NCBI GenBank assembly: GCA_934120395.1
Contig: CAKOTZ010000006.1
Span: forward strand, 16,914 to 80,913
DNA: 64,000 nucleotides
Direction of reading: 5' to 3'
From: an uncultured Clostridia bacterium
GTDB taxonomy: Bacteria > Bacillota > Clostridia > TANB77 > CAG-508
Part shown: positions 13,519 through 46,916 of the stretch, in pieces
Layout: every line of letters begins with the position of its first letter
Position numbering within the stretch: position 1 is the first letter of the stretch
Notes under the pieces: generated by a model
The model's input: only the letters and a program-made list of their open reading frames with translations
Told to the model about the DNA's origin: nothing
The model's database searches: none
Made by a program: the position numbers and the translations under genes

Positions 13519-13519
13519 T

Positions 13520-14854: not shown

Positions 14855-14876
14855 GCAAAAATAGGAGGAAGGTTTT

Positions 14877-16850: not shown

Positions 16851-16875
16851 AAAATAAGTAATGGAAGGTGTGTTT

Positions 16876-18010: not shown

Positions 18011-18076
18011 AGAAACAATAGATAAAATTAACTTTTGTTAATTAAAAATTTTATCGATTAGAGGTTTGGTGAGAAA

Positions 18077-20527: not shown

Positions 20528-20532
20528 GGCAG

Positions 20533-30023: not shown

Positions 30024-30148
30024 TAAATATTTCCTTCAAACACTAGACAAAATAAAAAAGTTAATATAAAATAAACACAAATATAATGTCATATAGTAGC
30101 ATAATATAGAATAATTAGGAAAATTCAAAAGAGAAGAGGAGAAAAAAC

Positions 30149-31414: not shown

Positions 31415-31525
31415 ACCTGAACGCTTGTTAGCGATGCACATTGACCTTGTTTAATGATAGAATACGAGTAGATAGTTTGAAGAGGTGACATTATACATAC
31501 GATAAAATAGTAGAGGTTTATTAGT

Positions 31526-31891: not shown

Positions 31892-32885
31892 ATTTGATGA
31901 GTATTTAACTTACGATAATCTAATGCGAGCTCATTTAGAGAGTAGGAAAAATAAGCGTTATAAAAAAGATATCATTTTGTTTGAAATTAAACAAGAAGAT
32001 TATATTAGATATTTATTGGAAGAACTAAAAAATGGTACATATAAGCATGGAGGCTATTCAATCTTTTATGTAAGAGAGCCTAAATTGAGAAAAGTAGAAA
32101 AATCAAGATATATAGATAGGGTCGTGCATAGATGGTTAGTAGATAATTTTTTCATTGATCTATATGTACCAACTTTTATATCAACAAGTTATGCTTGTTT
32201 AAAAGACAGGGGAACGCACAAAGCAGTATGTGATGTGCAAAAAGCAATGCAGCATTGCCTAAGAATATGGAATGAATACTATATATTAAAAATGGATGTT
32301 GCTAAATACTTTCAAAGCATTGATAAAAATATTTTGTTTAATATAATAAAGAAAAAAATTAAAGATAAAAAGGTACTATGGTTGGTAGAACAAATTATTT
32401 ATTCAAATAAGGGAGAAACGGGTATAGCCATAGGAAACTATACTTCACAGATATTTGCAAATTTATATTTAAATGAAGTAGATCAATATATAAAAAAAGA
32501 ATTGAAGGTTAAATATTATTTTAGGTATATGGATGATTCGATAATTCTTGTAAAAACTAAAAATGAGGCAAAATTAATATTAGAAAAAATAAGACAATTC
32601 TTAAGGGAAAATTTAAAATTAGAGTTAAACTCTAAAACTCAAATATTTAAGAATAAACAAGGTGTTAATTTTTGTGGATACAAAATTAATGAATACAGAA
32701 TGAAGGTAAGAGACAGAGGAAAGAAGAAACTTAAAAAAAAGATAAAAATATTAAAAGAAAATGTGAAAAATGGTAAAATGAGTAGTAAAGAGGCTAAGTT
32801 ATACCTGTGTGGGCATGTTGGATATATTAAATATGCAGATGTTCACAATTTAACTAGCAAGCTGTTTTATTTGCCGGAAGAATAA
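31869..32885 (+). CDS. DGR reverse transcriptase
   Basis: 338 aa with IAIGNYTSQIFANLYL (the DGR-type [I/L]GxxxSQ motif) and FRYMDDSIIL. Confidence 0.92.
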   Translation: MARTLRNKFDEYLTYDNLMRAHLESRKNKRYKKDIILFEIKQEDYIRYLLEELKNGTYKHGGYSIFYVREPKLRKVEKSRYIDRVVHRWLVDNFFIDLYVPTFISTSYACLKDRGTHKAVCDVQKAMQHCLRIWNEYYILKMDVAKYFQSIDKNILFNIIKKKIKDKKVLWLVEQIIYSNKGETGIAIGNYTSQIFANLYLNEVDQYIKKELKVKYYFRYMDDSIILVKTKNEAKLILEKIRQFLRENLKLELNSKTQIFKNKQGVNFCGYKINEYRMKVRDRGKKKLKKKIKILKENVKNGKMSSKEAKLYLCGHVGYIKYADVHNLTSKLFYLPEE

Positions 32886-32914
32886 TAATAACATAGGGAT
32901 AAATCAGATGGCGG

Positions 32915-33029
32915 GCGTCATTCGTGGCGGTTCTTGCAATAATGCTTCAGGTTCTAACCCAGCATGCTACCGCAATGGTAACAACTCTGTTTCCAATGTG
33001 AACTATAACATCGGGTTCCGTGCCGTACT
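32915..33029 (+). other. DGR template repeat (TR)
   Basis: Encodes VIRGGSCNNASGSNPACYRNGNNSVSNVNYNIGFRAVL. Rich in AAY codons. Non-coding position downstream of the RT. Confidence 0.9.
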
Positions 33030-33193
33030 CTAATATTATTCGAGATTGTGTGTTTTACGGAATGCATACAGTGAAGTATTAGATATTAAAGAGGTTTATT
33101 CCTTCCTACTTTAGGTAAAAATGAATCAATAAAACATGTATTGGTAGTAAATTTACGAAGATACGTGTTTTATGCTATATATAAGGTGAAAAT

Positions 33194-33484: not shown

Positions 33485-33892
33485 TTAATTATAAATTTCT
33501 TGTAATTGTTTTTTAATCTGGTCTAGAAACTCAAAAGATTCTTTAAAACTAATATTATTCATGTCAATGGCCATTATAGACTGAATAATATTTTGTGTTT
33601 TCATGTTGTTTAAATAATCGGAGTAATTTTCAATTTTTGAATAGTTTAAATCAATAACTTCAAAAGGAATATTAAAGTTGCTTAGCTGTTTTGTATAGTA
33701 TTCTAATCTTTTTTGAGGAAATCCACATTTAGTAACGCTGTCGTTTAAATTTGTTATTTTAAAATCAAAAAGTTCTGAAATTTTTGTGGCATCTTCGTTT
33801 AGTGCAATATAAAAAATGCCACTTTTAAATAAATATATTGTTGTATTATCCTTATTCTTTAATTTTAAGTATTCTGTATATAATTTGCTCAT
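33485..33892 (-). CDS. stand-alone MutS domain I-like protein
   Basis: 135 aa from the ATG after aggggg. LYTEYLKLKNKDNTTIYLFKSGIFYIALNEDATKISELFDFKIT...CGFP mirrors the MutS N-terminal mismatch-binding domain. Confidence 0.5.
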   Translation of the reverse strand: MSKLYTEYLKLKNKDNTTIYLFKSGIFYIALNEDATKISELFDFKITNLNDSVTKCGFPQKRLEYYTKQLSNFNIPFEVIDLNYSKIENYSDYLNNMKTQNIIQSIMAIDMNNISFKESFEFLDQIKKQLQEIYN

Positions 33893-34064
33893 ATATTTGC
33901 CCCCTATCATATATAAACTCATTTTGAATTCACCTGTTCATAATATAAGCATGCAAGAAAGCAAATACAATCGAAATTTGTCGAATAGTATAAAAATAAT
34001 GTAAATTGTTAGTAACCATTTGAATACTTAGGTAAAATTATATGTTTTAAATAGAATAAAAGGC

Positions 34065-34121: not shown

Positions 34122-34364
34122 ATGACGACTACAATTCAAAAATGGGGAAATAGTCAAGGAGTTAGAATACCAAAAGTAATATTAGATACTGTTAATTGGA
34201 AAGAAAATGAACAAATAACAATAGTTGTCGAGAATGGGAAGGTTATAATGGAAAAGGCTAAAGGAAAAAGAAGAAATATAAAAGAATTATTTGAAAACTA
34301 TAAAGACGAATATGAACCAATTGAAGTGGATTGGGGAGAAATGAAGGGAAGAGAAGTATGGTAA
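34122..34364 (+). CDS. mazE: MazE/AbrB-fold antitoxin
   Basis: TIQKWGNSQGVRIPKVILD (SpoVT/AbrB swapped hairpin). Overlaps the toxin start (ATGGTAA). Confidence 0.8.
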   Translation: MTTTIQKWGNSQGVRIPKVILDTVNWKENEQITIVVENGKVIMEKAKGKRRNIKELFENYKDEYEPIEVDWGEMKGREVW

Positions 34365-34687
34365 AACAAGGTACAATTATAAAAATAAATTTTAATCCTC
34401 AATCAGGGCATGAACAGGCTGGATATAGACCTGCAATTGTAATAAGCAATGATATATTTAATGAAAAAACAAAATTATCAATAGTTTGTCCTATTACAAA
34501 TACTGATAATAATTTTCCATTGCATGTTTCATTAGATGAGAGAACAAAGACTACAGGCGTAATATTATGCGAACATATAAGGGCCTTAGACTTAGAAAGT
34601 AGAACATATCAAGAAGTGGAAAAAGTACCAAAGGATATTTTAAATCATGTAATAGATATTGTTTATGCAGAAATAGAAGAATTATAA
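34358..34687 (+). CDS. mazF: MazF/PemK endoribonuclease toxin
   Basis: GTIIKINFNPQSGHEQAGYRPAIVISND...CPITN...LDLESR. Confidence 0.85.
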   Translation: MVKQGTIIKINFNPQSGHEQAGYRPAIVISNDIFNEKTKLSIVCPITNTDNNFPLHVSLDERTKTTGVILCEHIRALDLESRTYQEVEKVPKDILNHVIDIVYAEIEEL

Positions 34688-34744: not shown

Positions 34745-35996
34745 ATGAAAAAAAGTTTTTGCAAATTATTAGTTATTACATTAATAGTAATATTTTTAGT
34801 CCAGATAAGTGTGTATGCAAATGAAGAAGAACATGAAAATATAGAAATACAAGAAATATGGAACGAAATAAAAGAAACTGATGCAAATATTGTAAAAGAA
34901 CCTACAATAAATTCAAAGGCAGCAGTTGTATTGGATAGAAAATCAAAAACAGTAATTTTTGATAAAAATGCAAATCAAAAAAGAGCAATGGCGTCTACAA
35001 CAAAAATTATGACTGCCATTTTAGTGCTAGAAAAAGGTAATTTAAATGATTTGATTGAGGTATCACAAAAAGCTGCAAATACAGGTGGATCAAGATTAGG
35101 GTTAAAAAAAGGAGATAAAATAACATTAAATGATTTACTTTATGGATTAATGTTACGCTCTCGGAAATGATGCGGCAGTACAAATTGCTGAGCATATTGG
35201 AGGCAGTGTAGAGGAATTTGCACAAATGATGAATCAAAAAGCAAAAGAATTAAATTTGGTAAATACGCATTTTGTAACGCCACATGGATTAGATAATACT
35301 GACCACTATACAACTCCATACGAATTAGCCATATTAACAGATTATGCACTAGAAAATAGTAAATTTGCTAAAATTGTAAATACAAATACATGCACAATAA
35401 CCATTAATAATTCTCCAATAGTTTTGAATAATACAAATGAATTATTAGGTACTTTAAATGGTGTAAATGGTGTAAAAACAGGTTTTACCAATAATGCAGG
35501 AAGATGTCTTGTAACTTCTACAACGCGAAATGGATGGCAAATTGTTGTAGTTGTATTAGGTGCAGATACTAAAAGAAATAGAACAAAAGATAGCATTAGT
35601 TTGATAGAGTATACTTTTAAAAATTATGAAATTGTAAATATAAAGGATAAGTTAAAAAGAAGTTTTAATAATGAAAAGAAAAAACAGGAAGCTTTAATAG
35701 AAATTGAAAAAGGAAAAAATGATAAAATTATATTAGAATTAGGGGAGATATCTAATACAGAATATCCTATAAAAAATAGTGAATTAAAAAATTTAACTTG
35801 CAATATAGATGTAGTTCATTACATAAAAGCACCAATTAAGGAAGGCACTGTGGTAGGAAATTTGGAAGTGATGATTGGTGATAAAAATATTTGCAATGTA
35901 AATATTCTTTGTAAGTATACTGTTGATAAGAAGGGGGTGTGGGATTATTTTTCGGATTTAGTTTGTAATATAGGGAAGTATATATTGGAAATTTAA
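34745..35996 (+). CDS. D-alanyl-D-alanine carboxypeptidase (S11 PBP5-type); frame changes +1 at CGG 35162-35164
   Basis: Signal peptide. SxxK box (ASTTKIM), SxN box restored only after the shift (LRS|GNDAAVQIAE), and KTG box (VKTGFT). Confidence 0.85.
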
Positions 35997-36206: not shown

Positions 36207-36282
36207 TGGAGCGGGAAACGGGGCTCAAACCCGCGACCTCTGCCTTGGCAAGGCAGCGCTCTATCAACTGAGCTATTCCCGC
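36207..36282 (-). tRNA. tRNA-Gly (GCC)
   Basis: Reverse complement GCGGGAATAGCTCAGTTGATAGAGCGCTGCCTTGCCAAGGCAGAGGTCGCGGGTTTGAGCCCCGTTTCCCGCTCCA. Canonical 7-nt loop TTGCCAA. Confidence 0.9.
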
Positions 36283-36495
36283 ATAAGTTATTTACAGCTA
36301 TTATAATAACAAATGTAAGCAAAAAAGTCAATGGATTTTAAAAAAATATTTACAAATCATGAGCAAAGCTTAGGGAATAAGAACTTTCAAGATAAAATTT
36401 ACATAACTTATTGAAAAATAATGTAAAATGTAATATAATTGTAATGTTAATGTAGAAAAACATCGGAATAATGCTTCCGTAATAGTACTTGTGTT

Positions 36496-36528
36496 AATTT
36501 GACAGTAACAGATAGAAACTGTCAAATT
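36496..36528 (+). promoter_or_regulatory. 11-bp perfect inverted repeat upstream of the adhesin gene
   Basis: aatttgacagt (36496-36506) / actgtcaaatt (36518-36528), with an 11-nt spacer. Confidence 0.45.
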
Positions 36529-36593
36529 ATGCTATTGACTTAAGATAAAAACATAGTAAAATAATAATAGTTTTGAATAAGGAAGGTAAGAAT

Positions 36594-39500
36594 ATGAAAC
36601 GAAGTAAAGTGTTATTAGGACTAGTTATGACATTAGTAATGTTTGCTATTCCGGCATCTGCTTTTGCAACAACTTCTCATGAACTTGGAATTGTACAAAA
36701 TAGAGAAGATGGATATGCTTACAGAATAGGAGTAGGTTCTGGAGGAGATGCAAGAAATTTAGATTTATGGAAAATTGTGGAATACTTAAATGGGGGAGTA
36801 ACGTGGAATAACGCAATTTATTGTATTAAGGGTGGACCTGGTTTTGGAGGAACAATTACAGAACCAACGGATAAACGTACTTATGATGTAACTTATGATA
36901 TGAAAAAAGTAGGAGATATTCCTTCTAATTATAAGAGTACGTTACCAAGTGATACTGCAAATACAGTAACTCTTAATATAGGTGGTGTAGAAACAGAAGT
37001 ATCTTATACAAATTATAATGCAGTTTTATGGATTTTAGATAATATGTATCTACCTAAACATCCAGATGAAACACAAAGACAAGAAATGAGAGATTCTTTG
37101 TTAAAAGCAGCATTTAAAGCTCAATTAGAAGATGCAGATTTAGTACCTCCATTTGAAATTAGTCAAATAAATTTAACAGATTCAGATATTGAGGTAATAC
37201 AACAACTTGCTATTTGGCATTTTACAAATCCAGATGATATATATAATGTAGGAAATACTTTGCCAGCAATTCAAATTAGCGAAAAAGATAGTACAACTAA
37301 TTATAACGCTTATAGTATGGAGTCTAAAAGACAAGAAGATGCACAAACTTTATATACATACTTAGTTAATAATGCTATGATAAATGCAAATAAATATGGT
37401 ACAGGTGAAAATAGACATTTAACAGCACCAGTACAATTACTAAATACAAATTTATCATCAACATATATTGATGATGATGTGGTTGTTGGACCATTTAAAA
37501 TAGAAAAAGAATCTGAATTAGCTTATACCTTAAGACCATCAGTATTAAATCAAAACAATGAAGCTATTACTAATTACACTTTATATAAAAAAGGAACTGA
37601 AGGAAAGCCTGTTAAAGCAGGTGAAACTGAAACAATAGAAAGCTTAGTTGGACAAGAGTTTTACATAGCAGTTCCAAAAACATCAAATGTAACAGAAGTA
37701 ACATTAAAATTAATGGTTGATTATTATGAATCAGAAGCAAACTTCTGGACTGTTAGTGGTACAAATAGTGAACAACCAGTTGTGATGGTAGAAAAGAAAT
37801 TACAAACAGCAGAACAAAAAGTAGGATTAAACTATAATTTTGATTTAGCATTAAGAAAATTTATTACAGCAGTTAATAAAACAGCTGTAACTGATCGTGT
37901 ACCACAGGTAAAAGTAAGTGAAAACGGAAAAATAACTTATGAACATAAAAAAACACCTCTTGTTGTAGAGTCTGGAGACCTTGTAACATATACAATTCGT
38001 ATTTATAACGAAGGATTAGTTTCTGGATTTGCACAAGAAGTAAAAGATGATATTCCAGCTGGTTTAAAATTCTTACCAAATAATGAAACAAATAAGAAAT
38101 ATGGATGGAAATTGACAGAAGATGGTAAGAGTATTGTAACTGATTATCTAAAGAAAGATGATAATAATACAAATTTATTAAAAGCATTTGATTCAAAAAA
38201 CATGACTGTACCAGATTATAAAGATGTAAATGTTGTGTTTGAAGTTACAGAACCAAATTCTTCAAAGAATACAATTATAAATACAGCAGAAATTAGTGAT
38301 GATGCAGATGAACATGGAAAACCAATAGATGATATAGATTCAACTCCAAATAATAATAAAGATGGAGAAGATGATATAGACAAAGAATATATCAAATTAA
38401 AAGAATTTGATTTAGCATTAAGAAAATTCATTACAGCAGTTAATGATAACAAAATAGAAGAAAGAGTACCACAAGTAAAAGTTGATGAAAATGGAAAAAT
38501 TACATATACACATCCAAAAACACCAGTAGCTGTTGCAAATGGGGATATCGTAGTTTATACAATTAGAATATATAATGAAGGACAGACAGATGGCTATGCA
38601 AAAGAAATTACAGATGATATACCTGAAGGAACAGAATTTATAATTGATAATGAAATAAACGTACAATATCGTTGGAAATTATCAGCAGATACAAAATCTG
38701 TTACAACAGATTACTTATCAATGGAAAGAGACGAAGATAACTTATTAAAAGCTTTCAATAAAGACAAAATGACCACACCAGAATATAAAGATGTAAAGAT
38801 TGCTTTAAAAGTTACAGAATCAAATGCATCAAAGAATACAATTATAAATACAGCAGAAATTAGTGATGATGCAGATAAAAATGGAAAACCAGTAGAGGAT
38901 ATAGATTCGACTCCAGGAAATAATAAAGATGGAGAAGATGATATAGACAAAGAATATATCAAATTAAAAGAATTTGATTTAGCATTAAGAAAATTTATTA
39001 CATCAGTTAATGACAAGGAAGTAACAACAAGAATACCACAAGTAAAAGTGGACGAGAATGGAAAAATTACTTATGAACACACAAAAGAGCCAGTTTTAGT
39101 TGCAAATTCAGATATTGTAACATATACAATTAGAATATATAATGAAGGTACAATTAACGGATATGCAGAAAGTGTAAGAGATGATGTACCAGATGGATTA
39201 GAGTTCTTGCCAGATAATGAAACAAATAAGAAATATGGATGGAAATTATCAGAAGATGGAAAATCAATTACAACAGATTATCTATCAAAAGATAACAGCA
39301 AAGATAATTTACTTAAAGCATTTGACAATGTTGCTATGAAAACACCAGATTACAAAGATGTAAAAGTTGCATTCAAAGTAACAGATAAAATATTGCCAAA
39401 AGATAGAGTTTTGATAAATACAGCAGAAATTAATGATGATACAGACGAAAATGGAAAACCAGTAGATGATATAGATTCAACACCAGGAAACAATAAAGAT

Positions 39501-40721
39501 GGTGAAGATGACATTGATAAGGAATATGTAAAAGTACAATATTTTGATTTGGCATTAAGAAAATTCATTACAGCAGTTAATGATACTGAAGTAACAACAA
39601 GAATACCACAAGTAAGTGTAGATGAGAATGGAAAAGTTACTTATACACATACAAAAGAACCAGTATTAGTTGCAAATTCAAATATTGTAACATATACAAT
39701 TAGAGTATTTAATGAAGGTACAATGGACGGCTATGCAGAAAGCGTAAGAGACGATGTACCAGATGGATTAGAGTTCTTAGCAGATAATGAAATTAACAAA
39801 CAATATGGATGGAAATTATCAGAAGATGGAAAAACAATTACAACAGATTATCTATCAAAAGATAAGGCTGAGGATAATATAATCAAAGCATTTGATAGAG
39901 AAAAAATGGATACACCAGCATACAAAGATGTAAAGGTTGCATTTAAAGTAACAGAGGAAATGTTACCAGGAGACAGAATTTTAATAAATACAGCAGAAAT
40001 CAATAAAGATAGAAATGAAACAGATACACCAGATATAGATTCAACACCAGGAAACAATAAAGATGGTGAAGATGATATTGATAAAGAGTATGTAAAAGTA
40101 CAATATTTTGATTTATCTTTATTAAAATGGGTTAACAAAGTAATTGTTACTGAAGATGGTGAAACAACTGAAAGAGATACAGGACATACTGGTTTAGAAA
40201 ATCCAGAACCAATTGTAAAAGTTGAATTAGATAGAAAGAAATTAAAAAACACAACAGTTAAATTTGAATATACAATTAAAATTACAAATGAAGGTGAAAT
40301 CGCTGGATATGCTAAGGAAATTAGCGATTATATTCCAGATGGTTTAGAGTTTATCCAAGCTGACAATCCAAACTGGACAGAAGCAGATGGAAAGGTAACA
40401 ACTAGAGGATTAGAGGGAACTTTATTACAACCAGGTGAAAGTGCAGATGTTAAAATTATATTAACATGGATTAATAATTCAGAAAACATGGGAGTTAAGA
40501 CAAACGTTGCCGAAATTAGCGAAGATTATAATGAATTTGGAGCAAAGGATATAGATTCAACACCAAACAATAAGGTTGAAGGCGAAGATGATATTGACGA
40601 TGCACCAGTAATGCTTTCAATTAAAACTGGTGGAGCAACAGTAGTTTACTTTGGATTAATTGGAATTGTATTAGCAACAATTGCAGGTGGAATTATATTG
40701 ATTAAACGTTATGTATTGTAA
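36594..40721 (+). CDS. giant repeat-containing surface protein (DUF11/conserved-repeat type) with C-terminal anchor
   Basis: Signal peptide MKRSKVLLGLVMTLVMFAIPASAFA. Five ~190-aa repeats (FDLALRKFIT..YTIRIYNEG..DIDSTPGNNKDGEDDIDKEY). C-terminus SIKTGGATVVYFGLIGIVLATIAGGIILIKRYVL. Confidence 0.8.
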   Translation: MKRSKVLLGLVMTLVMFAIPASAFATTSHELGIVQNREDGYAYRIGVGSGGDARNLDLWKIVEYLNGGVTWNNAIYCIKGGPGFGGTITEPTDKRTYDVTYDMKKVGDIPSNYKSTLPSDTANTVTLNIGGVETEVSYTNYNAVLWILDNMYLPKHPDETQRQEMRDSLLKAAFKAQLEDADLVPPFEISQINLTDSDIEVIQQLAIWHFTNPDDIYNVGNTLPAIQISEKDSTTNYNAYSMESKRQEDAQTLYTYLVNNAMINANKYGTGENRHLTAPVQLLNTNLSSTYIDDDVVVGPFKIEKESELAYTLRPSVLNQNNEAITNYTLYKKGTEGKPVKAGETETIESLVGQEFYIAVPKTSNVTEVTLKLMVDYYESEANFWTVSGTNSEQPVVMVEKKLQTAEQKVGLNYNFDLALRKFITAVNKTAVTDRVPQVKVSENGKITYEHKKTPLVVESGDLVTYTIRIYNEGLVSGFAQEVKDDIPAGLKFLPNNETNKKYGWKLTEDGKSIVTDYLKKDDNNTNLLKAFDSKNMTVPDYKDVNVVFEVTEPNSSKNTIINTAEISDDADEHGKPIDDIDSTPNNNKDGEDDIDKEYIKLKEFDLALRKFITAVNDNKIEERVPQVKVDENGKITYTHPKTPVAVANGDIVVYTIRIYNEGQTDGYAKEITDDIPEGTEFIIDNEINVQYRWKLSADTKSVTTDYLSMERDEDNLLKAFNKDKMTTPEYKDVKIALKVTESNASKNTIINTAEISDDADKNGKPVEDIDSTPGNNKDGEDDIDKEYIKLKEFDLALRKFITSVNDKEVTTRIPQVKVDENGKITYEHTKEPVLVANSDIVTYTIRIYNEGTINGYAESVRDDVPDGLEFLPDNETNKKYGWKLSEDGKSITTDYLSKDNSKDNLLKAFDNVAMKTPDYKDVKVAFKVTDKILPKDRVLINTAEINDDTDENGKPVDDIDSTPGNNKDGEDDIDKEYVKVQYFDLALRKFITAVNDTEVTTRIPQVSVDENGKVTYTHTKEPVLVANSNIVTYTIRVFNEGTMDGYAESVRDDVPDGLEFLADNEINKQYGWKLSEDGKTITTDYLSKDKAEDNIIKAFDREKMDTPAYKDVKVAFKVTEEMLPGDRILINTAEINKDRNETDTPDIDSTPGNNKDGEDDIDKEYVKVQYFDLSLLKWVNKVIVTEDGETTERDTGHTGLENPEPIVKVELDRKKLKNTTVKFEYTIKITNEGEIAGYAKEISDYIPDGLEFIQADNPNWTEADGKVTTRGLEGTLLQPGESADVKIILTWINNSENMGVKTNVAEISEDYNEFGAKDIDSTPNNKVEGEDDIDDAPVMLSIKTGGATVVYFGLIGIVLATIAGGIILIKRYVL
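37838..40106 (+). repeat. four tandem coding repeats of about 567 bp (a fifth, diverged unit follows)
   Basis: Unit starts (tttgatttagcattaagaaaatt) at 37838, 38406, 38973 and 39543. The diverged unit starts at 40107. Confidence 0.85.
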
Positions 40722-40832
40722 TAAATAAATGAAAAAATGAATTCAAGCTAATTAAAGCTTTGAGTTCATTTTTTCTTTACAATAAAAAACAGTTATGATA
40801 TAATTTCAAAATAGTAACGAGAGGTGGAATGA

Positions 40833-41774
40833 ATGAATCAAATTCTATATGTGGAAAAAAAGAAAAAGAATAAAAAACAAACAACATTAGAAATCGATAA
40901 AATATTAATGTTTTTTGCAATAGCAATACTTGTTTTTGGTGTGGTTTTGGTTGGAGAGGGTACTTATGCAACAATAAAAAAATCAGAGTATACAAGCCAA
41001 GTAGCAAATGCAGCACCTGTTGCTAGTATTGAAAGAGAAGGACAATATCTTGTTATTAAAGCAACACATATTAAGCCAATTGAAGCTATCACATATAATT
41101 GGAATGGAGAAAAAGATACAGAAGTAATTATAAATGGGGAAAATCGTACAAGCATTACAGAAAAAATAGATTTACCTGCTGGAAACAATACATTTAATAT
41201 TGAAGTTACAGATGTAACAGGAAAATCAACAACATACAATAAAGAATTTTCAATTGAAACAGGGAGAGATATTGCAAAACCCAAAATAGACATGAATATT
41301 GTTGGAAATTACATTAAGTTAACAATTACAGATGAAACTGAATTATCTTATGTAACATATAGATGGAATGATGATAATGAAACAGAGGTAAAACCAACAG
41401 GAGCTGATAATAAAACAATAGAAGTTAATGTTGATATATTAAAAGGAAAAAATACATTTACCGTAATTGCTGTAGATTCAAGCAATAATACAACGAAAAG
41501 AGAAGAAACATTTGAGGGAAGAACAAAACCAACAATAGAGGTATATGCCGATGGAGATAGCTTCTTAATAATTGCAAAACATGATACGGCTATAGATCAT
41601 ATAGAGTATAATCTAAATGGACAGGACTATACTGTAAACAATACACCAGGACCTGAAATGCAACATCGTCAAAAAATGGCTGATGGATACAATAAAATTG
41701 TTATAAAAGCTTACAGCACGGAGGATACAGTTGAAACTTATGAAGGAGAATATACATACACATCAGGACAATAA
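40833..41774 (+). CDS. membrane-anchored protein with three Ig-like repeats
   Basis: 313 aa. N-terminal TM helix, then three ~80-aa beta repeats (..ITYNWNGE.., ..VTYRWNDD.., ..IEYNLNGQ..). Confidence 0.5.
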   Translation: MNQILYVEKKKKNKKQTTLEIDKILMFFAIAILVFGVVLVGEGTYATIKKSEYTSQVANAAPVASIEREGQYLVIKATHIKPIEAITYNWNGEKDTEVIINGENRTSITEKIDLPAGNNTFNIEVTDVTGKSTTYNKEFSIETGRDIAKPKIDMNIVGNYIKLTITDETELSYVTYRWNDDNETEVKPTGADNKTIEVNVDILKGKNTFTVIAVDSSNNTTKREETFEGRTKPTIEVYADGDSFLIIAKHDTAIDHIEYNLNGQDYTVNNTPGPEMQHRQKMADGYNKIVIKAYSTEDTVETYEGEYTYTSGQ

Positions 41775-41792
41775 GTTGGTTAGGAGATAAAT

Positions 41793-42719
41793 ATGATACA
41801 AGAAATTTTTATAATTGATAATCAAACAGAAATGATAAAGCAAATACAAAAAATTTTCAAAGCTGAAAGAGATTTTAAATTTAAAAGTGTAAAAACTGAA
41901 GAAATCGAAATTGCATTAAAAAATATTCCTGCATTAATCATTATCAATGAAGACAATATAGATAGGGATGTTGTAGATGTTTGTAAACAAATTAGAGCAG
42001 ATGATGATAATAGTATTACTCCAATTATTGTATGTTCTTCAAAACGAGAATTAGAACACTCTTTAAGCGTTCTAAAAAATGCGGTAGAATATTATTTAAT
42101 TCAACCAATAGATAACGAATATTTGTATTATACAATAAAAAATATAGTACGATTTATGTATATAAATCGTAGAGTAAGCCCTTTAACAGGTTTACCTGGG
42201 AATGTACAGATACATGCCGAATTAAAGAAACGTTTATTGAATAAAGAGAATTTTGCTGTATTATATTTTGATTTAGATAATTTTAAAGCATATAACGATA
42301 TATATGGTTTTATCAAGGGAGACGAAATTATCAAATTTACTGCTAGAACTATTTTAGAGTATATTCATACAGCTGATTCGGGAAGCAGTTTTGTTGGACA
42401 TATTGGTGGAGATGATTTTGTAGCAATTGTAGATTCGAGCAATGATTACGAAAAAATATGTCAAAATATAATAGTGAATTTTGATTCTAAAGTATTACAA
42501 TACTTTAATGAAGAAGATAGAAAAAGAGGCTATGTAGAGGTTGCCAATAGACGTAATATTATTGAACAATTTCCACTAACATCTATTTCAATTGGAGTTG
42601 TAGATACTTGTAACCGCAAATTCCACAACATACTAGAAATTGGAGAAGTTGGAGCACAAGTAAAGCATTTGGCAAAAATAACTCCGGGAAGTACATATAT
42701 TATAGATAAAAGAAAGTAG
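41793..42719 (+). CDS. pseudo-receiver plus GGDEF-family nucleotide cyclase domain with GGDDF variant
   Basis: SPLTGLPGN, FDLDNFKAYNDIYGFIKGD, GHIGGDDFVAIV. The N-terminal REC-like domain lacks the acidic pocket (IIDNQ; IIINEDN). Confidence 0.7.
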   Translation: MIQEIFIIDNQTEMIKQIQKIFKAERDFKFKSVKTEEIEIALKNIPALIIINEDNIDRDVVDVCKQIRADDDNSITPIIVCSSKRELEHSLSVLKNAVEYYLIQPIDNEYLYYTIKNIVRFMYINRRVSPLTGLPGNVQIHAELKKRLLNKENFAVLYFDLDNFKAYNDIYGFIKGDEIIKFTARTILEYIHTADSGSSFVGHIGGDDFVAIVDSSNDYEKICQNIIVNFDSKVLQYFNEEDRKRGYVEVANRRNIIEQFPLTSISIGVVDTCNRKFHNILEIGEVGAQVKHLAKITPGSTYIIDKRK

Positions 42720-42878
42720 AGAAAAATATATATGAAAAGTGATAAAAAAGATGTATGAAAACTTTTTTATCACTTTTTTTATTTTATGAAACTTTTGGTA
42801 AAGAAAAGTTATCTAATATATTAAGAAATTTCTAACTAAATTTATGTAAGAAGAAAGAGAGGGGATGAATAAAAGCCA

Positions 42879-43424
42879 ATGAAAAAGCTAATATGTAGAA
42901 CCAATAAAAGTATAGATGATGAATTTGTTGAATTAGTAATGGAAGCTAAAGAAAGCATGTACAAGATTGCCAGGTGCAGATTAAATAATTATGAAGATGT
43001 TTTAGATGTTACTCAAAATACAATATTATCTGCGTATAAAAATGTTACACAACTAAGGAATAAAAAACATTTTAAAACATGGATAATTAAAATTTTGATA
43101 AATGAATGCAATTTATTTTATAAAAAGCAATATAAAAATGAGAGAGTAATGGAAAATGTAAAGCTGTCAGAGCAAAAGCTTGATAAAGAATTGGAACCGT
43201 TCACTAATGTTGTAAATTCATCTATAGACTTTAAGTTACTAATGAAAGTACTAAATGATACAGAACAACTTGTTATAAGTTTATTTTATAGTAATGAGTT
43301 TAGCTGTAAAGAGATAGCTAAGATATTAGATATGAATGAAAATACGGTTAAAACTAATTTAAGGAGAGCAAAAGATAAAATTAAATTATATTACGATAAA
43401 AGGGGTGAATATAGTGAAAAATGA
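42879..43424 (+). CDS. ECF-type sigma-70 family factor
   Basis: 181 aa. Region 2 (FKTWIIKILINEC) and region 4 HTH (CKEIAKILDMNENTVKTNLRRAKDKI). Confidence 0.75.
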   Translation: MKKLICRTNKSIDDEFVELVMEAKESMYKIARCRLNNYEDVLDVTQNTILSAYKNVTQLRNKKHFKTWIIKILINECNLFYKKQYKNERVMENVKLSEQKLDKELEPFTNVVNSSIDFKLLMKVLNDTEQLVISLFYSNEFSCKEIAKILDMNENTVKTNLRRAKDKIKLYYDKRGEYSEK

Positions 43425-44763
43425 AAGTTATGATAAACTTGATAATATATTGTTTAATGAATTTGAAAGAAACTTGAAAATGCCAAAAGATTATGAAGAA
43501 AAAGTAAAAAGTATGCTTGATAAAACAACAGGTTATAATTCCAAAAAAAGAGCAACGGAAATGTTAAAGCATAGTTTTTTAAGAAAAGTGGCAAGTGTTG
43601 TTGTTATATTGGGAGTAGCTGGTGGTGCTGTTTATGCAGGATGTAATTTTGAAAATATAAAAAAATTTATATTTGATGGTGGAATTGGTACAGCTGTTGA
43701 AAATGGGTATGTAGCTAATATAGAACAAAATATTCAAGAGAAACAAATGCAAGTTATAGAAAATAACGAAATTATAGTTGATAACATAGAGGTAGGACCA
43801 AATATTGATAGTTTTGTTATGGATGATAGTAATTTGTGCATAAATTTTAGTTTTAATTTTGAAAATGAAATTAAAAAATATTTGAATTTGAAGGATTTGC
43901 ATTTGTTTGAATTAGAGAATTTGGTGATAACAGATGGAGAAAGCAAAATATTGTTTGAAAATTTAAACAAAGAAGACTTTGAGTCATATTGCCAAAAATG
44001 TAATTTGCAATATGAAAAAGGAGAATTTAATGAAAATTATATTAATAGTGGAGTGAATATTGTAAGTTATGATAAAACAGATAATACCATAAAGATAATG
44101 TACAATGTTTATGGTAGTAAATATCCAAAGGTTAAAAAAATAAAAATAGAGTTTAATGGGATAAGATTAGCAGAACATATAATGGATAATGAGATAGAAG
44201 ATTCTATAGTTCTGAAAGGCGAATGGAGCATAGAACTAAGCGTTCCTGAGCAAATGTATAATAGGACAAGTGAAAGTTATAAGGTTGTTAATACTAATAA
44301 TGAAAATTTTGAAGTATATAGTGCTAAAGTAAGCGATACAGGTTTTGAATTTGGAACAATTATAAAAAACTGTAAAGACACAATGAATGATGCAGATTAC
44401 ATAAACAAAATAAATGACTTACACCAAGTATTAAGTAATCCTAATATTACAGAAGAGGAAAATTTAAGAATTTCAAAAGAAATTAAAAAAATATCAGATG
44501 ACAAATTAAAAGTAATATTAACAGAAGAAATAGATGAAAATAATAAGCATGTTAAATCAACTTATGTTACAAATTCAAATGGAAAAAGATTTGAATTGGA
44601 TTTAACAGTTGGAAGAAAGCAAACTGCTAATCGTATAGATGATGATACATTTGATTATTACAATACATTTGAAATGACAAAGAAGGATTCAACAGATAAA
44701 ATTGAGGTAATATTGGATTATAGAGGAGAAAAGGTTAATATTGAACTTGAAAAAGTGAAGTAA
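43405..44763 (+). CDS. putative anti-sigma factor (single TM, large ectodomain)
   Basis: Overlaps the sigma gene. TM helix VASVVVILGVAGGAVYA at about residue 60. Confidence 0.5.
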   Translation: MNIVKNESYDKLDNILFNEFERNLKMPKDYEEKVKSMLDKTTGYNSKKRATEMLKHSFLRKVASVVVILGVAGGAVYAGCNFENIKKFIFDGGIGTAVENGYVANIEQNIQEKQMQVIENNEIIVDNIEVGPNIDSFVMDDSNLCINFSFNFENEIKKYLNLKDLHLFELENLVITDGESKILFENLNKEDFESYCQKCNLQYEKGEFNENYINSGVNIVSYDKTDNTIKIMYNVYGSKYPKVKKIKIEFNGIRLAEHIMDNEIEDSIVLKGEWSIELSVPEQMYNRTSESYKVVNTNNENFEVYSAKVSDTGFEFGTIIKNCKDTMNDADYINKINDLHQVLSNPNITEEENLRISKEIKKISDDKLKVILTEEIDENNKHVKSTYVTNSNGKRFELDLTVGRKQTANRIDDDTFDYYNTFEMTKKDSTDKIEVILDYRGEKVNIELEKVK

Positions 44764-45424: not shown

Positions 45425-46144
45425 TCACAATTGATGGAGATTTTTCTTATATATATTAAATAGTATGGCATAGATTATGTCTTTAGGTTTTAATTTAACA
45501 TTATTGTAGATTTTAAAGTAACTAGAAAAAGTTAATATGTCACATTCATAAAACATTTCATCAATGGAATTAGAAATAGAAGATTTTATTGAACTAATTG
45601 TTCTTTTATATTTTGCTGATAACACAGGATACACATATGTATTAAAGTTAATGTAATCGTATATATTGTTTTTATAAAGAAATTGAATTATATCAATTAT
45701 ATAGGTAGTGCCAATGCGATTTAAATCAAATTTTAAATGTATTAATTCGTTTTGAATAATAATATATAAGTCATTTCTACTAAGAGACCAGTTAAATAAA
45801 ATATTACGAAGACCAAAGCTAAAGTCTTTGGGAGATATACAGTCAAATATAGAATTACTATTATTTTTTTCGGTATTTAAATAGTGATTGGATGTTATTA
45901 AAACAATATTTTGATTCATAGTTAAATTTTTCTCTATTTCCCTAATTAGTGATAATTCTTGAAATTTTTTAAAATGTGAATCTATAATTATCAAATCAGT
46001 TTGTAATTCAATTAAATCAGAAATAATGTTTTGTGAAATAAAGATAACCTTATTTAATCTGGCATCAGTGCAAAATGGAAAAATACTATTTGCTATTGCA
46101 ATAATATTTTGAGAATCATAGCCTACTATAGAAATATTAATCAT
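45425..46144 (-). CDS. degenerate receiver plus Spo0A_C-like HTH protein
   Basis: 239 aa. REC-like N-terminus without a clear phospho-acceptor. C-terminus GTTYIIDIIQFLYKNN...YPVLSAKYKRTISSIKSSISNSIDEMF resembles the Spo0A C-terminal domain. Confidence 0.35.
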   Translation of the reverse strand: MINISIVGYDSQNIIAIANSIFPFCTDARLNKVIFISQNIISDLIELQTDLIIIDSHFKKFQELSLIREIEKNLTMNQNIVLITSNHYLNTEKNNSNSIFDCISPKDFSFGLRNILFNWSLSRNDLYIIIQNELIHLKFDLNRIGTTYIIDIIQFLYKNNIYDYINFNTYVYPVLSAKYKRTISSIKSSISNSIDEMFYECDILTFSSYFKIYNNVKLKPKDIIYAILFNIYKKNLHQL

Positions 46145-46364: not shown

Positions 46365-46916
46365 GTGAACGAATTAGTAAAAAGAGCAAAAAATGGGGAT
46401 AAAAAGGCATTTACTAAATTGATTAAAATAATATCAGAAGATTTATATAGAATGGCAAGAATACGTTTAAAAAATGAAATAGATATTAATGAAGTGGTTC
46501 AAGAAACAATAATAAAAATATATAAATCAATAAAAACGGTAAGAAGGGAAGAGGCGTTTAAAAAATGGGCAATTAAAATATTAGTTAATTGTTGCAATGA
46601 TGTATATAACAAATCGTATAATAAATATGAATTCCTAGAAGAAAATATAGAGAAAGTTTACGTAAACAAAAACTGTTTTGATTGTGATATTGAGAAAAAA
46701 ATTGATGACATGGACTTTGAAATATTAATAAGAAAATTAAGTTATAAGGAAAGAATAGTACTTACACTATATTATTCAGATGGATTAACTTCGAGACAGA
46801 TAGGAAAAATATTAGAAGAACCTGAAAGTACAATAAAAAATAGAATAAATAGAGCGGTTAAGAAATTAAGATTTTCGTATGAAGTTGAGAGTTATAAAGA
46901 AACAATTGAAAATTAA
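46365..46916 (+). CDS. ECF-type sigma-70 family factor (second copy)
   Basis: GTG start. VNELVKRAKNGDKKAFTKLI, and region 4 LTSRQIGKILEEPESTIKNRINRAVKKL. Confidence 0.75.
   Translation: MNELVKRAKNGDKKAFTKLIKIISEDLYRMARIRLKNEIDINEVVQETIIKIYKSIKTVRREEAFKKWAIKILVNCCNDVYNKSYNKYEFLEENIEKVYVNKNCFDCDIEKKIDDMDFEILIRKLSYKERIVLTLYYSDGLTSRQIGKILEEPESTIKNRINRAVKKLRFSYEVESYKETIEN

What the first reader, a model, noticed from the sequence alone, without database searches (positions are those of the whole stretch)
36496..42719. Repeat adhesin with non-LPXTG anchor, Ig-repeat partner and a GGDDF pseudo-receiver cyclase in one locus
The 1375-aa surface protein has four near-identical ~567-bp tandem units plus a diverged fifth (starts 37838, 38406, 38973, 39543, 40107). 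These repeats are prone to recombinational length variation.

Its C-terminus is SIKTGG followed by a hydrophobic helix and KRYVL. That has the layout of a sortase signal but not the LPXTG sequence.

An 11-bp perfect inverted repeat (36496-36528) sits in its promoter region.

Downstream are an N-anchored protein with three Ig-like repeats and a REC-like plus GGDEF-family protein. The GGDEF signature is GGDDF, and the receiver lacks the acidic pocket and a clear phospho-acceptor Asp.

The arrangement suggests a locally wired second-messenger control of adhesin display, with an atypical and possibly non-c-di-GMP cyclase.
Basis: partly seen in the sequence, partly recalled or inferred. Interest (0 to 1): 0.5.

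Follow-up and report, generated by a model that had tools for sequence, protein, structure and literature searches.

The report
Membrane-anchored thioester adhesin beside pseudo-receiver GGDDF cyclase
An uncultured gut Clostridium carries a large covalent-binding surface adhesin next to a widely conserved gene pair (a membrane protein with three Ig-like domains and a GGDEF-type signalling enzyme whose receiver can no longer be phosphorylated); the parts are real, but each is a variant of a known kind and a link between adhesin and enzyme is not shown.

Summary
The 1375-aa ORF is a fibrillar adhesin: signal peptide, thioester domain (its only Cys is in a YCIK motif), five CLIPPER/DUF11 units, then LSIKTG, a hydrophobic helix and KRYVL.

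Corrections:
- Units 1-4 are only 72-85% identical in DNA, not near-identical.
- The inverted repeat has 12-nt arms. It is not found upstream of the orthologues.

AlphaFold2 puts L-S-I of "LSIKTG" in the last beta-strand of the final domain. A plain C-terminal membrane anchor is therefore more likely than a sortase signal.

The adhesin has its own terminator. Gene 2 and the GGDDF gene form a separate operon. That pair is adjacent in all 88 related loci examined. The adhesin lies upstream in 40 of 64.

The GGDDF protein belongs to a large, unnamed HxGGDDF branch of receiver-GGDEF regulators (1423 clusters). Distant members have normal receivers. This clade has Asn at the phospho-acceptor, so it is a pseudo-receiver. 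The metal and guanine-binding residues are kept, so nothing points to a product other than c-di-GMP.

No riboswitch, PilZ, EAL, HD-GYP or sortase gene lies in the window.

Verdict: a new variant of known kinds, of moderate interest.

The parts
36411..36439 (+). Best promoter-like site upstream of the adhesin (TTGAAA-17-TATAAT, 11/12). If it is used, the leader is about 150 nt long.
   Evidence: Consensus scan only. The number of such sites in the region is no higher than in shuffles.
36495..36529 (.). Perfect 12-nt inverted repeat TAATTTGACAGT-N11-ACTGTCAAATTA. It is a candidate operator or a leader hairpin.
   Evidence: The RNA fold is -13.1 kcal/mol, z = -2.4. It is not conserved upstream of orthologues. 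No Rfam family matches.
36535..36562 (+). Proximal promoter-like site (TTGACT-16-TAAAAT), immediately downstream of the inverted repeat.
   Evidence: 10/12 match. Consensus match only.
36594..40721 (+). Adhesin CDS, 1375 aa: signal peptide, thioester domain, five CLIPPER/DUF11 units, C-terminal TM helix.
36594..36668 (+). Sec-type signal peptide MKRSKVLLGLVMTLVMFAIPASAFA.
   Evidence: Read from the sequence. The assignment is by inspection and no predictor was run.
36696..37793 (+). Thioester-domain region. Cys77 lies in YCIK (36822-36824). QQLAIW lies at 37200-37217 and fits the TQxxPhiW motif. The conserved Gln394 (37773-37775) is the candidate bond partner.
   Evidence: Pfam TED scores 33.1 bits against a 22 cut-off at ORF residues 122-268. 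Cys77 is the only Cys in the protein. C77, Q203/Q204, W208 and Q394 are at least 85% conserved in 36 orthologues. Motif definitions come from PMC6194298.
37838..40634 (+). Five tandem CLIPPER (DUF11) Ig-like units, starting at 37838, 38406, 38973, 39543 and 40107.
   Evidence: PF01345 scores 92.4 bits over 5 stretches. TIGR01451 scores 110 bits over 5 stretches.
40614..40631 (+). LSIKTG: the end of the last beta-strand (L-S-I) plus a short hinge (K-T-G).
   Evidence: AF2 gives strand 163-172 = IDDAPVMLSI and coil 173-176 = KTGG (pLDDT 90.8 overall). The family consensus is L[STA][IV]xTG in 117 of 120 homologues.
40635..40718 (+). C-terminal transmembrane helix and conserved short cytoplasmic end (...ILIKRYVL-COOH).
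   Evidence: AF2 helix 177-202. The end IK[KR][YF]V[LI] is conserved across homologues.
40726..40779 (+). Intrinsic terminator after the adhesin gene (long hairpin followed by UUUUUUCUUU).
   Evidence: -21.2 kcal/mol, z = -6.6, 0 of 200 shuffles as stable. Inverted repeat I6.
40776..40804 (+). Promoter-like site for the gene 2 / GGDDF operon (TTTACA-17-TG-TATAAT, 11/12).
   Evidence: Sequence. Consensus match only.
40833..41774 (+). Gene 2, 313 aa: invariant cytoplasmic N-terminus MNQIL, a Lys-rich stretch, a TM/stalk helix (residues 21-58), and three extracellular Ig/FN3-like domains.
   Evidence: It lies immediately upstream of the GGDDF gene in 88/88 loci.
41793..42719 (+). Pseudo-receiver plus GGDDF-type GGDEF domain protein, 308 aa. 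Asn52 codon is at 41946-41948 and the GGDDF motif at 42405-42419. Asp160, Lys165, Asn168, Asp177 and His203 are conserved.
42730..42782 (+). Intrinsic terminator after the GGDDF gene.
   Evidence: -17.1 kcal/mol, z = -6.0, followed by a U-run. Perfect inverted repeat.

Best explanation
There are two adjacent transcription units in an uncultured, low-GC gut Clostridium.

Unit 1 encodes a Sec-exported fibrillar adhesin of the thioester/isopeptide (TIE) kind.
- An N-terminal thioester domain would bind a target covalently.
- It sits on a stalk of five CLIPPER (DUF11) Ig-like domains.
- The protein is most likely held in the cytoplasmic membrane by a C-terminal helix. The last beta-strand of the fifth domain (...APVMLSI) runs through a four-residue hinge (KTGG) straight into the helix.
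- On this reading "SIKTG" is a structural element, not a sortase site.

Unit 2 is an operon conserved in hundreds of related species.
- Its first gene encodes a bitopic membrane protein: an invariant cytoplasmic N-terminus fMet-Asn-Gln-Ile-Leu, one helix, and three Ig-like domains outside the cell.
- Its second gene encodes a cytoplasmic receiver-GGDEF protein of a large, unnamed "HxGGDDF" branch.
- Ancestrally that branch has a phosphorylatable receiver. In this clade the acceptor Asp has become Asn.
- The output domain keeps the metal-binding and guanine-binding residues of diguanylate cyclases. It therefore probably still makes c-di-GMP from GTP.
- Its activity is probably set by protein contacts, most plausibly with the co-transcribed membrane protein, rather than by phosphorylation.

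The adhesin is a frequent but dispensable neighbour. It may be one target of the signal.

What is shown: gene and domain content, motif conservation, synteny, the terminators, and loss of the acceptor Asp.
What is inferred: catalysis, the product, the partner contact, membrane rather than wall anchoring, and any control of the adhesin.
For: Adhesin:
- Pfam TED and five DUF11/CLIPPER stretches score above their cut-offs.
- The single Cys77 lies in YCIK. QQLAIW and Gln394 are conserved in 36 orthologues. These fit the TED motifs in PMC6194298.
- CLIPPER is a known isopeptide stalk domain (PMC12617251).

Anchor:
- AF2 (pLDDT 90.8) gives strand 163-172 = IDDAPVMLSI, coil KTGG, and helix 177-202.
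- The conservation pattern V-x-L-x-[IV] alternates as a strand would.
- The extreme C-terminus IK[KR][YF]V[LI] is conserved, unlike the variable tails of LPxTG/NPxTG proteins in the same set of loci.

Operon structure:
- Strong terminators follow the adhesin gene and the GGDDF gene.
- An 11/12 promoter-like site precedes gene 2.
- The gap between gene 2 and the GGDDF gene is 18 nt.

Synteny:
- Gene 2 is adjacent to the GGDDF gene in 88/88 loci. The adhesin is upstream in 40/64.
- At least 590 species hold the GGDDF gene.

GGDDF family:
- 1423 50%-identity clusters score E<=1e-30, and 131 of the top 150 carry GGDDF.
- D160, F164, K165, N168, D169, G172, G176, D177, H203, GGDDF, R253, K291, K295, S300 and R307 are conserved in at least 90% of 72 sequences.
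- D160, K165, N168 and D177 align to PleD D327, K332, N335 and D344.
- A GGDDF enzyme, GSU1937, is catalytically active (PMC8835794).

Pseudo-receiver:
- Distant members have DD...D-x-x-MP...T...K. This clade has IINED.
- Asn52 aligns to PleD Asp53 and to the Asn of PleD's non-phosphorylated second receiver domain.

Gene 2:
- MNQIL is kept in 81 of 82 loci, whatever the start codon.
Against: - No enzymology exists for this branch. The fourth motif residue is Asp rather than Glu.
- PleD Arg366 is His here.
- The C-terminal third of the domain does not align to solved cyclases with HMMER. Activity or product could therefore differ.
- The isolated tail scores 17.8 bits on the LPXTG_anchor model TIGR01167, just above its 15.9 cut-off.
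- A few orthologues read [STA]PATG, like C. difficile-type sortase motifs. Sortase processing is therefore not excluded.
- An AF2 strand assignment is a prediction, not a measurement.
- The contact between gene 2 and the pseudo-receiver rests only on co-transcription, strict adjacency and a conserved cytoplasmic peptide.
- A close relative of the GGDDF gene with the same Asn occurs without gene 2 (L089).
Confidence: 0.5

Rival explanations
1. The tail is a genuine cell-wall sorting signal with a non-canonical L[STA][IV]xTG motif. A dedicated sortase, encoded elsewhere in the genome, cuts after Thr and links the adhesin to peptidoglycan.
For: - The layout is motif, then hydrophobic segment, then basic end.
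- T is 92% and G 100% conserved in 117 homologues.
- TIGR01167 scores 17.8 bits on the window tail and 23.6 bits on an orthologue with APATG.
- Three orthologues have [STA]PATG.
- Related genomes carry LPxTG and NPxTG proteins, so they probably have sortases.
Against: - AF2 places L-S-I in the last strand of the folded domain, with only four residues before the helix.
- There is no wall-spanning spacer.
- The TIGR01167 match covers only model positions 4-31, that is TG plus helix plus basic end, not the LP positions.
- The C-terminal end is far more conserved than in ordinary sorting signals.
- No ORF with a TLxTC signature or a sortase Pfam match lies in the 64 kb window.
Confidence: 0.25
2. 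The GGDDF domain is catalytically dead. It acts as a nucleotide-binding receptor or scaffold, as many degenerate GGDEF domains do.
For: - The motif deviates from GG[DE]EF.
- PA3258 (GGDDF-EAL) showed no cyclase phenotype, as cited in PMC8835794.
- Arg366 is replaced by His, and the C-terminal third is divergent.
Against: - Metal and substrate residues are near-invariant across a family whose members are only about 33% identical. That pattern is typical of an active site.
- There is no RxxD I-site that could serve as a c-di-GMP receptor site.
- GSU1937 shows that GGDDF can be active.
Confidence: 0.3
3. The GGDDF enzyme makes a product other than c-di-GMP, for example cGAMP, c-di-AMP or a linear or oligomeric nucleotide. 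This is what the first reader suspected.
For: - The family has its own invariant residues (His203, Arg253, Lys291, Ser300, Arg307) that canonical cyclases lack.
- The only characterised GGDDF enzyme is a Hypr-type cGAMP synthase.
- NCBI names distant members only "response regulator".
Against: - Asn168 and Asp177 align to PleD Asn335 and Asp344. By my recollection of the literature these residues read guanine.
- Asp177 is kept in 90% of the family. It is not replaced by the Ser that marks Hypr enzymes.
Confidence: 0.1
4. The adhesin and the gene 2 / GGDDF operon are functionally unrelated. They are neighbours only through shared ancestry in a conserved chromosomal region.
For: - They are separate transcription units.
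- The adhesin is missing from 24 of 64 loci. In those loci FtsH, SpoIIE or kinase genes lie upstream instead.
- The GGDDF gene sits in a conserved core-gene neighbourhood (ksgA, yabG, veg, Peptidase_S11).
Against: The same order and orientation persist although the adhesin N-terminal parts have diverged to 25-57% identity.
Confidence: 0.4

Closest known systems
TIE (thioester-isopeptide-ester) surface proteins, e.g. S. pyogenes SfbI/Cpa, C. perfringens CpTIE, B. anthracis BaTIE (PMC4450167, PMC6194298)
   Same: - An N-terminal thioester domain with a [YFL]C-Phi-zeta Cys motif and a TQxxPhiW-like motif.
- A stalk of cross-linkable Ig-like domains.
- A signal peptide and a C-terminal anchor region.
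   Different: - The stalk is built of CLIPPER/DUF11 (CnaA-like) units rather than CnaB or ester domains.
- The Cys-to-candidate-Gln spacing is long (77 to 394), so the class is unresolved.
- The tail is L[STA][IV]xTG plus a conserved IKKYVL-type end, not LPXTG.
- No solved structure matches by sequence.
CLIPPER (DUF11, PF01345) fibrillar-adhesin stalk domain, structure 9IFR (PMC12617251)
   Same: - Five tandem units match PF01345 and TIGR01451.
- The units have conserved Lys (FDLALRK) and Asn (NTAEI) positions.
- They form the stalk of a long surface protein.
   Different: - The units are about 189 aa, longer than the 121-aa crystallised domain. Each carries an acidic DIDSTPxNxxxGEDDID segment.
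- The fold match to 9IFR is weak (E = 1e-3, TM 0.28-0.40).
- Isopeptide geometry was not measured.
PleD / WspR-type receiver-GGDEF diguanylate cyclases
   Same: - A receiver fold followed by a GGDEF domain.
- PleD D327, K332, N335, D336 and D344 are matched by D160, K165, N168, D169 and D177.
- The receiver aligns well to PleD's non-phosphorylated second receiver domain, which has the same Asn.
   Different: - The motif is GGDDF, not GG[DE]EF.
- Arg366 is replaced by His.
- There is no RxxD inhibitory site.
- The C-terminal third is not alignable.
- The phospho-acceptor Asp is lost.
- All NCBIfam equivalog scores are far below their cut-offs.
GSU1937 of Geobacter sulfurreducens, a Hypr GGDEF with a GGDDF motif (PMC8835794)
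   Same: A natural GGDDF motif in a protein with no EAL or HD-GYP partner domain. Activity was shown with reporters.
   Different: - GSU1937 has a transmembrane N-terminus and the Hypr Ser in place of the guanine-reading Asp. The window protein keeps Asp177 and has a pseudo-receiver.
c-di-GMP-controlled sortase substrates CD2831/CD3246 of Clostridioides difficile (PMC4591827)
   Same: A Clostridial adhesin whose display might depend on c-di-GMP. The anchor motif is non-LPXTG ((S/P)PxTG there).
   Different: - There the control runs through c-di-GMP riboswitches and the ZmpI protease, and SrtB anchoring is proven.
- Here no riboswitch is found in the leader or the window.
- No protease or sortase gene is nearby.
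- The motif lacks Pro and is predicted to lie in a beta-strand.

Membership tests
Thioester-domain (TED/TIE) adhesins | Match to the Pfam TED model above its gathering score | tested here: met
   PF08341 scores 33.1 bits against a 22 cut-off, at ORF residues 122-268.
Thioester-domain (TED/TIE) adhesins | Bond-forming Cys in a [YFL]C-Phi-zeta motif | tested here: met
   YCIK holds Cys77, the only Cys in 1375 aa. It is conserved in at least 85% of 36 orthologues.
Thioester-domain (TED/TIE) adhesins | TQxxPhiW motif next to the bond | tested here: met
   QQLAIW at residues 203-208 (T replaced by Q). Q203, Q204, A206 and W208 are conserved.
Thioester-domain (TED/TIE) adhesins | Bond-forming Gln, and an actual Cys-Gln thioester | tested here: inconclusive
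   Gln394 is the only conserved Gln downstream of the TQxxPhiW-like motif, so it is the candidate. The bond itself cannot be tested with these tools.
CLIPPER / DUF11 isopeptide stalk domains | Repeated matches to PF01345 and TIGR01451 | tested here: met
   92.4 bits over 5 stretches and 110 bits over 5 stretches.
CLIPPER / DUF11 isopeptide stalk domains | A Lys-Asn isopeptide with a catalytic acid | tested here: inconclusive
   Lys in FDLALRK/SLLK and Asn in NTAEI/NVAEI are kept in all five units. The catalytic acid was not assigned and no geometry was available. The paper notes that some DUF11 domains lack the bond.
Sortase substrates (cell-wall sorting signal) | An LPXTG-type pentapeptide with Pro at position 2 | tested here: not met
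   The window has LSIKTG. The consensus is L[STA][IV]xTG, and Pro occurs in 3 of 117 homologues.
Sortase substrates (cell-wall sorting signal) | A hydrophobic segment followed by a basic C-terminal end | tested here: met
   AF2 helix 177-202, then KRYVL. TIGR01167 scores 17.8 bits against a 15.9 cut-off on the isolated tail, matching model positions 4-31 only.
Sortase substrates (cell-wall sorting signal) | The motif is accessible in an unstructured stretch outside the folded domains | tested here: not met
   AF2 places L-S-I in the terminal beta-strand of the last domain (pLDDT 93 for residues 161-170). Only KTGG separates it from the helix. This is a prediction only.
Sortase substrates (cell-wall sorting signal) | A cognate sortase in the genome | not testable with these tools
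   None lies in the 64 kb window. The rest of the genome is not available.
Diguanylate cyclases (GGDEF domain) | Match to the domain models above their cut-offs | tested here: met
   PF00990 scores 54.9 against 23.8. TIGR00254 scores 53.1 against 37.4. Only profile positions 5-104 of 161 are matched.
Diguanylate cyclases (GGDEF domain) | The active-site motif [GAS]G[DE]E[FY] | tested here: not met
   GGDDF is invariant in the clade and present in 131 of 150 family representatives.
Diguanylate cyclases (GGDEF domain) | Metal-binding Asp and guanine-binding Asn/Asp (PleD D327, N335, D344) plus Lys332 | tested here: met
   D160, N168, D177 and K165 align to these positions. They are 90-100% conserved. 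The roles of the residues are from my memory of the PleD literature.
Diguanylate cyclases (GGDEF domain) | Arg366 before the motif, and the RxxD inhibitory site | tested here: not met
   Arg366 aligns to His203 (99% His in the family). RxxD aligns to H192-T-A-D195, which is not conserved.
Diguanylate cyclases (GGDEF domain) | Synthesis of c-di-GMP | not testable with these tools
   This needs enzymology.
Two-component receiver domains | Phospho-acceptor Asp at the end of beta-3 | tested here: not met
   Asn52 aligns to PleD Asp53 and to the acceptor Asp of 12aw. NED occurs in 62 of 82 loci and DED in 4. Distant family members have Asp.
Two-component receiver domains | The acidic pair, the Thr/Ser and the Lys of the active site, and the Pfam score | tested here: not met
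   The window has D9-N10, S82 and Q104. Response_reg scores 25.4 bits, below the 30.2 cut-off.
c-di-GMP riboswitch-controlled adhesins (C. difficile type) | A c-di-GMP-I or -II riboswitch in the leader | tested here: not met
   There is no Rfam match at gathering score in the window. Only a 9-E-value chance hit appears in 36280-36620.

The most novel reading that the evidence does not exclude
The three proteins form one outside-in adhesion sensor.
- The cytoplasmic pseudo-receiver of the GGDDF cyclase has traded phosphorylation for docking onto two short, nearly invariant cytoplasmic peptides.
- One is the fMet-NQIL N-terminus of the Ig-domain membrane protein. The other is the IK[KR][YF]V[LI]-COOH end of the membrane-anchored thioester adhesin.
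- Covalent capture of a target by the adhesin, or load on its stalk, would then be relayed across the membrane into second-messenger synthesis.
- As a corollary, the HxGGDDF branch (1423 clusters, unnamed) would be a functionally distinct class of GGDEF enzymes.
Probability: 0.1. Interest if true: 0.75.

Novelty: new variant of a known kind. Interest (0 to 1): 0.4.

Why it matters
Each component is recognisable, but three points would be worth a specialist's time.

1. A very large, phylogenetically broad branch of receiver-GGDEF proteins is defined by HxGGDDF and its own invariant residues. I found no characterised member. The single published active GGDDF enzyme shows that the motif need not mean "dead". 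One enzyme assay would settle activity for over a thousand protein clusters.

2. Within abundant, uncultured gut Clostridia this branch lost its phospho-acceptor. It became strictly paired with an Ig-domain membrane protein that carries an invariant five-residue cytoplasmic N-terminus. This is a testable case of a receiver rewired from phosphorylation to partner binding.

3. A family of thioester adhesins carries a conserved tail that looks like a sorting signal but is predicted to be part of the last folded domain. This is a caution for automated LPXTG annotation, and a possible distinct anchoring mode.

None of these changes current concepts unless the adhesin-to-cyclase link proves physical.

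Tried and rejected
- **Tandem Repeats Finder:** it found nothing because the period exceeds 500 nt. The repeat finder and my own alignments were used instead.
- **Riboswitch in the leader:** none. Rfam gave only two tRNAs and an RT-14 RNA in the window.
- **Inverted repeat as a conserved operator:** the exact pattern is absent from 93 loci. No similar repeat lies upstream of the orthologues. Half-site matches in the window are no more frequent than chance.
- **Sortase, PilZ, EAL or HD-GYP genes in the window:** none among 58 window ORFs scanned against Pfam. No TLxTC ORF was found.
- **CmpB-like membrane gene:** it lies between gene 2 and the GGDDF gene in 58 of 88 loci but is absent from this window.
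- **PDB sequence search with the adhesin:** no hits.
- **Fold search with the last CLIPPER unit:** only weak generic Ig-like matches. 9IFR ranked eighth.
- **Fold search with gene 2:** generic three-domain Ig/FN3 arrays, with no functional clue.
- **My first reading of the alignment:** I took Glu53 as the acceptor position. Recounting that alignment, a MAFFT family alignment and a profile alignment to PleD all gave Asn52.
- **Mapping the C-terminal phosphate-binding Lys/Arg of PleD:** HMMER does not align that part. My by-eye mapping (K295, S300) is therefore not used as evidence.
- **Literature searches:** searches for GGDDF and for pseudo-receiver GGDEF in Clostridia found no paper on this family.

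Full report
**Setting.**
- The window has low GC (26-35%), and nearly all genes are on the + strand.
- The closest relatives of the three genes come from uncultured gut Clostridia MAGs. Examples are Clostridium sp. CAG:440, CAG:571 and CAG:354, and Candidatus Merdicola.

**The adhesin.**
- From ATG 36594 the ORF encodes 1375 aa.
- Its N-terminus, MKRSKVLLGLVMTLVMFAIPASAFA, looks like a Sec signal peptide. This is by inspection only.
- Pfam gives a thioester domain (TED, 33.1 bits against a 22 cut-off) and five DUF11 stretches (92.4 bits). Pfam now calls DUF11 "CLIPPER". NCBIfam TIGR01451 agrees.
- CLIPPER was recently shown to be a CnaA-like stalk domain that forms an isopeptide bond in fibrillar adhesins (PMC12617251).
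- The protein has a single cysteine, Cys77, in YCIK. This fits the TED motif [YFL]C-Phi-zeta.
- QQLAIW (residues 203-208) fits the TQxxPhiW motif.
- Gln394 is the only conserved Gln further downstream, so it is the candidate bond partner.
- All of these positions are at least 85% conserved in 36 orthologues (motif definitions).

**The repeats.**
- The five unit starts and the periods of 567/567/570/564 nt are right.
- The units are not near-identical. Units 1-4 are 72-85% identical in DNA and 61-81% in protein. Unit 5 is 55-62% and 23-27%.
- Exact shared runs reach 54 and 44 bp between neighbouring units. Unequal recombination is possible but not especially favoured.
- Orthologues range from about 1200 to 2700 aa, so unit number does vary between species.

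**The tail.**
- Across 117 of 120 homologues of the last unit, the motif is L[STA][IV]xTG. L is 95% conserved, T 92% and G 100%.
- It is followed by a hydrophobic segment and a strikingly conserved end, IK[KR][YF]V[LI]-COOH.
- On its own the tail scores 17.8 bits on the LPXTG_anchor model (cut-off 15.9). The match covers only the TG-helix-basic part of the model.
- Three orthologues read [STA]PATG.
- Other proteins in the related loci carry ordinary LPxTG or NPxTG signals with variable ends. One is a CLIPPER paralogue with LPQTG. The adhesin tail is therefore a separate class.
- An AlphaFold2 model of the last unit plus tail was built from 51 sequences (pLDDT 90.8). It gives beta-strand 163-172 = IDDAPVMLSI, a four-residue coil KTGG, and helix 177-202.
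- L-S-I thus belongs to the last strand of the folded domain. The alternating conservation V-x-L-x-[IV] is what a strand with one buried face would show.
- I therefore favour a plain C-terminal membrane anchor (about 0.5-0.6) over a sortase signal (about 0.25).
- No sortase gene lies in the window. The rest of the genome could not be examined.

**Transcription units.**
- A hairpin of -21.2 kcal/mol (z = -6.6) followed by a U-run sits right after the adhesin stop codon.
- A similar hairpin (-17.1 kcal/mol, z = -6.0) follows the GGDDF gene.
- An 11/12 promoter-like site with an extended -10 element precedes gene 2.
- Gene 2 and the GGDDF gene are 18 nt apart.
- The adhesin therefore looks monocistronic, and gene 2 plus GGDDF form an operon.

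**Upstream of the adhesin.**
- There are two promoter-like sites (36411-36439 and 36535-36562) and the inverted repeat. Its arms are 12 nt, not 11.
- The repeat is unlikely by chance. It is species-specific, has no second copy, and matches no RNA family.
- Its function is open.

**Gene 2.**
- The model (pLDDT 85.5) shows a long helix (residues 21-58) and three beta-sandwich domains. Foldseek finds only generic three-domain Ig/FN3 arrays.
- The extracellular part evolves fast, at 35-64% identity.
- The first five residues, fMet-Asn-Gln-Ile-Leu, are kept in 81 of 82 loci, whether the start codon is ATG, TTG or GTG.
- A Lys-rich stretch before the helix puts this peptide in the cytoplasm. This follows the positive-inside rule and is an inference.

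**The GGDDF protein.**
- It is highly conserved: 62-91% identity in thousands of metagenomic proteins, all about 308 aa, with GGDDF invariant.
- A full HMMER scan of 1.84 billion representatives found 1423 clusters at E<=1e-30. Of the top 150, 131 carry GGDDF.
- Members occur in Actinomycetota, Elusimicrobiota, Chloroflexota and other phyla. They are named only "response regulator" or "diguanylate cyclase-like".
- In 72 sequences of about 33% median identity, these positions are at least 90% conserved: D160, F164, K165, N168, D169, G172, G176, D177, H203, GGDDF, R253, K291, K295, S300 and R307.
- A profile alignment to PleD maps D160, K165, N168, D169 and D177 onto D327, K332, N335, D336 and D344. 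It maps H203 onto R366. The RxxD site is not kept.
- The C-terminal third does not align to any solved cyclase.
- The only published active GGDDF enzyme is GSU1937, a Hypr-type enzyme (PMC8835794). The Hypr Ser is not present here.
- I conclude that the domain is probably an active, GTP-using cyclase. Its product is probably c-di-GMP. Its chemistry is untested.

**The receiver.**
- Distant family members have the full receiver signature: DD, then D-x-x-M-P, then T/S, then K.
- The Clostridial clade at 42% identity or more has IINED or LINSD at the acceptor position.
- Asn52 aligns to PleD Asp53. It also aligns to the Asn of PleD's second, non-phosphorylated receiver domain.
- In the window, Asp10 is also Asn and the conserved Lys is Gln104.
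- "Pseudo-receiver" is therefore correct, and it is a derived state.

**Synteny.**
- In 88 loci (82 non-redundant), gene 2 always lies immediately upstream of the GGDDF gene.
- A CmpB-like membrane gene (PF06541) sits between them in 58 loci. It is absent from this window.
- The adhesin is upstream in 40 of the 64 loci that have at least 5 kb of upstream sequence.
- Farther relatives of the GGDDF gene occur in other contexts. One lies next to ksgA without gene 2. One is fused to an anti-sigma-type kinase domain beside a STAS gene. One carries extra receivers beside a histidine kinase.
- The conserved functional unit is therefore gene 2 plus GGDDF. The adhesin is a frequent neighbour.

**Mechanism and verdict.**
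- The best-supported reading has three parts: a membrane-anchored TIE adhesin, a separately transcribed envelope-facing Ig protein, and a pseudo-receiver cyclase controlled by partner contacts rather than phosphorylation.
- Control of the adhesin by the messenger is possible but unproven.
- The window holds no c-di-GMP riboswitch, PilZ, EAL or HD-GYP gene.
- An HD-GYP-like gene does lie next to the GGDDF gene in the closest long contigs.
- The most novel reading is a physical adhesion sensor that uses the two conserved cytoplasmic peptides. I give it about 0.1.

Noticed in passing
window 28761-33173: A complete diversity-generating retroelement. It has two paralogous target genes (28761-30023 and 30149-31414) with an FGE-sulfatase/C-type-lectin-like C-terminus, bAvd (31526-31891) and a reverse transcriptase (31869-32885). 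The template repeat 32915-33032 differs from the variable repeat 31287-31404 at 13 positions, 12 of them at template adenines. The Rfam RT-14 RNA (122.9 bits) at 33028-33173 directly follows the template repeat.
   Followed up: yes
window 11289-23169 and 62790-63953: A type IV secretion-like cluster. It has three TrbC/VirB2-type pilin ORFs, a PrgI-family ORF, a VirB4-like ATPase (TraG P-loop) and an 878-aa protein with a cell-wall hydrolase domain. A TraG/TraD-type coupling-protein fragment lies on the minus strand at the window's end.
   Followed up: partly
window 34745-35996; L006 12032-13268: The D-Ala-D-Ala carboxypeptidase (Peptidase_S11) gene upstream of the adhesin is split into two ORFs (34745-35170 and 35226-35996). 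A similar split appears in the related contigs L006, L007 and L008. It could be a shared frameshift, a pseudogene or recoding. This was not examined.
   Followed up: no
window 40833-40847; 81 of 82 related loci: The N-terminus fMet-Asn-Gln-Ile-Leu of the gene 2 family is kept whatever the start codon (ATG, TTG or GTG). The rest of the protein diverges to about 30% identity. A cytoplasmic docking peptide is the obvious guess.
   Followed up: partly
L004 9209-9985 and 57 other loci: A CmpB-like membrane protein (PF06541, about 260 aa) is inserted between gene 2 and the GGDDF gene in 58 of 88 loci. It is absent from the window. It may be a third member of the module.
   Followed up: partly
L091 8001-9736: A distant HxGGDDF family member is fused to an HATPase_c_2 (anti-sigma-factor kinase type) domain. 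It is followed by a STAS-domain gene. This suggests that the branch can feed partner-switching cascades.
   Followed up: no
window 42879-44763, 45425-46144, 46365-46916: Two ECF-type sigma factor genes lie just downstream of the locus. The first overlaps a 452-aa ORF that could be its anti-sigma factor. Between them, on the minus strand, is a 239-aa ORF with a weak Spo0A_C-like match (E = 0.0016, below the cut-off).
   Followed up: no
window 33485-33922 (-) and 34122-34687: A 145-aa ORF consists only of MutS domain I. Two overlapping small ORFs look like a MazE/MazF-type toxin-antitoxin pair from their sequences. That assignment is my reading only and was not scanned.
   Followed up: no
L006 10952-11876: In the closest long contigs, an HD_5/HD (HD-GYP-like) gene lies convergent and directly after the GGDDF gene. 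It is split into two ORFs. This hints that c-di-GMP turnover exists in the clade.
   Followed up: no
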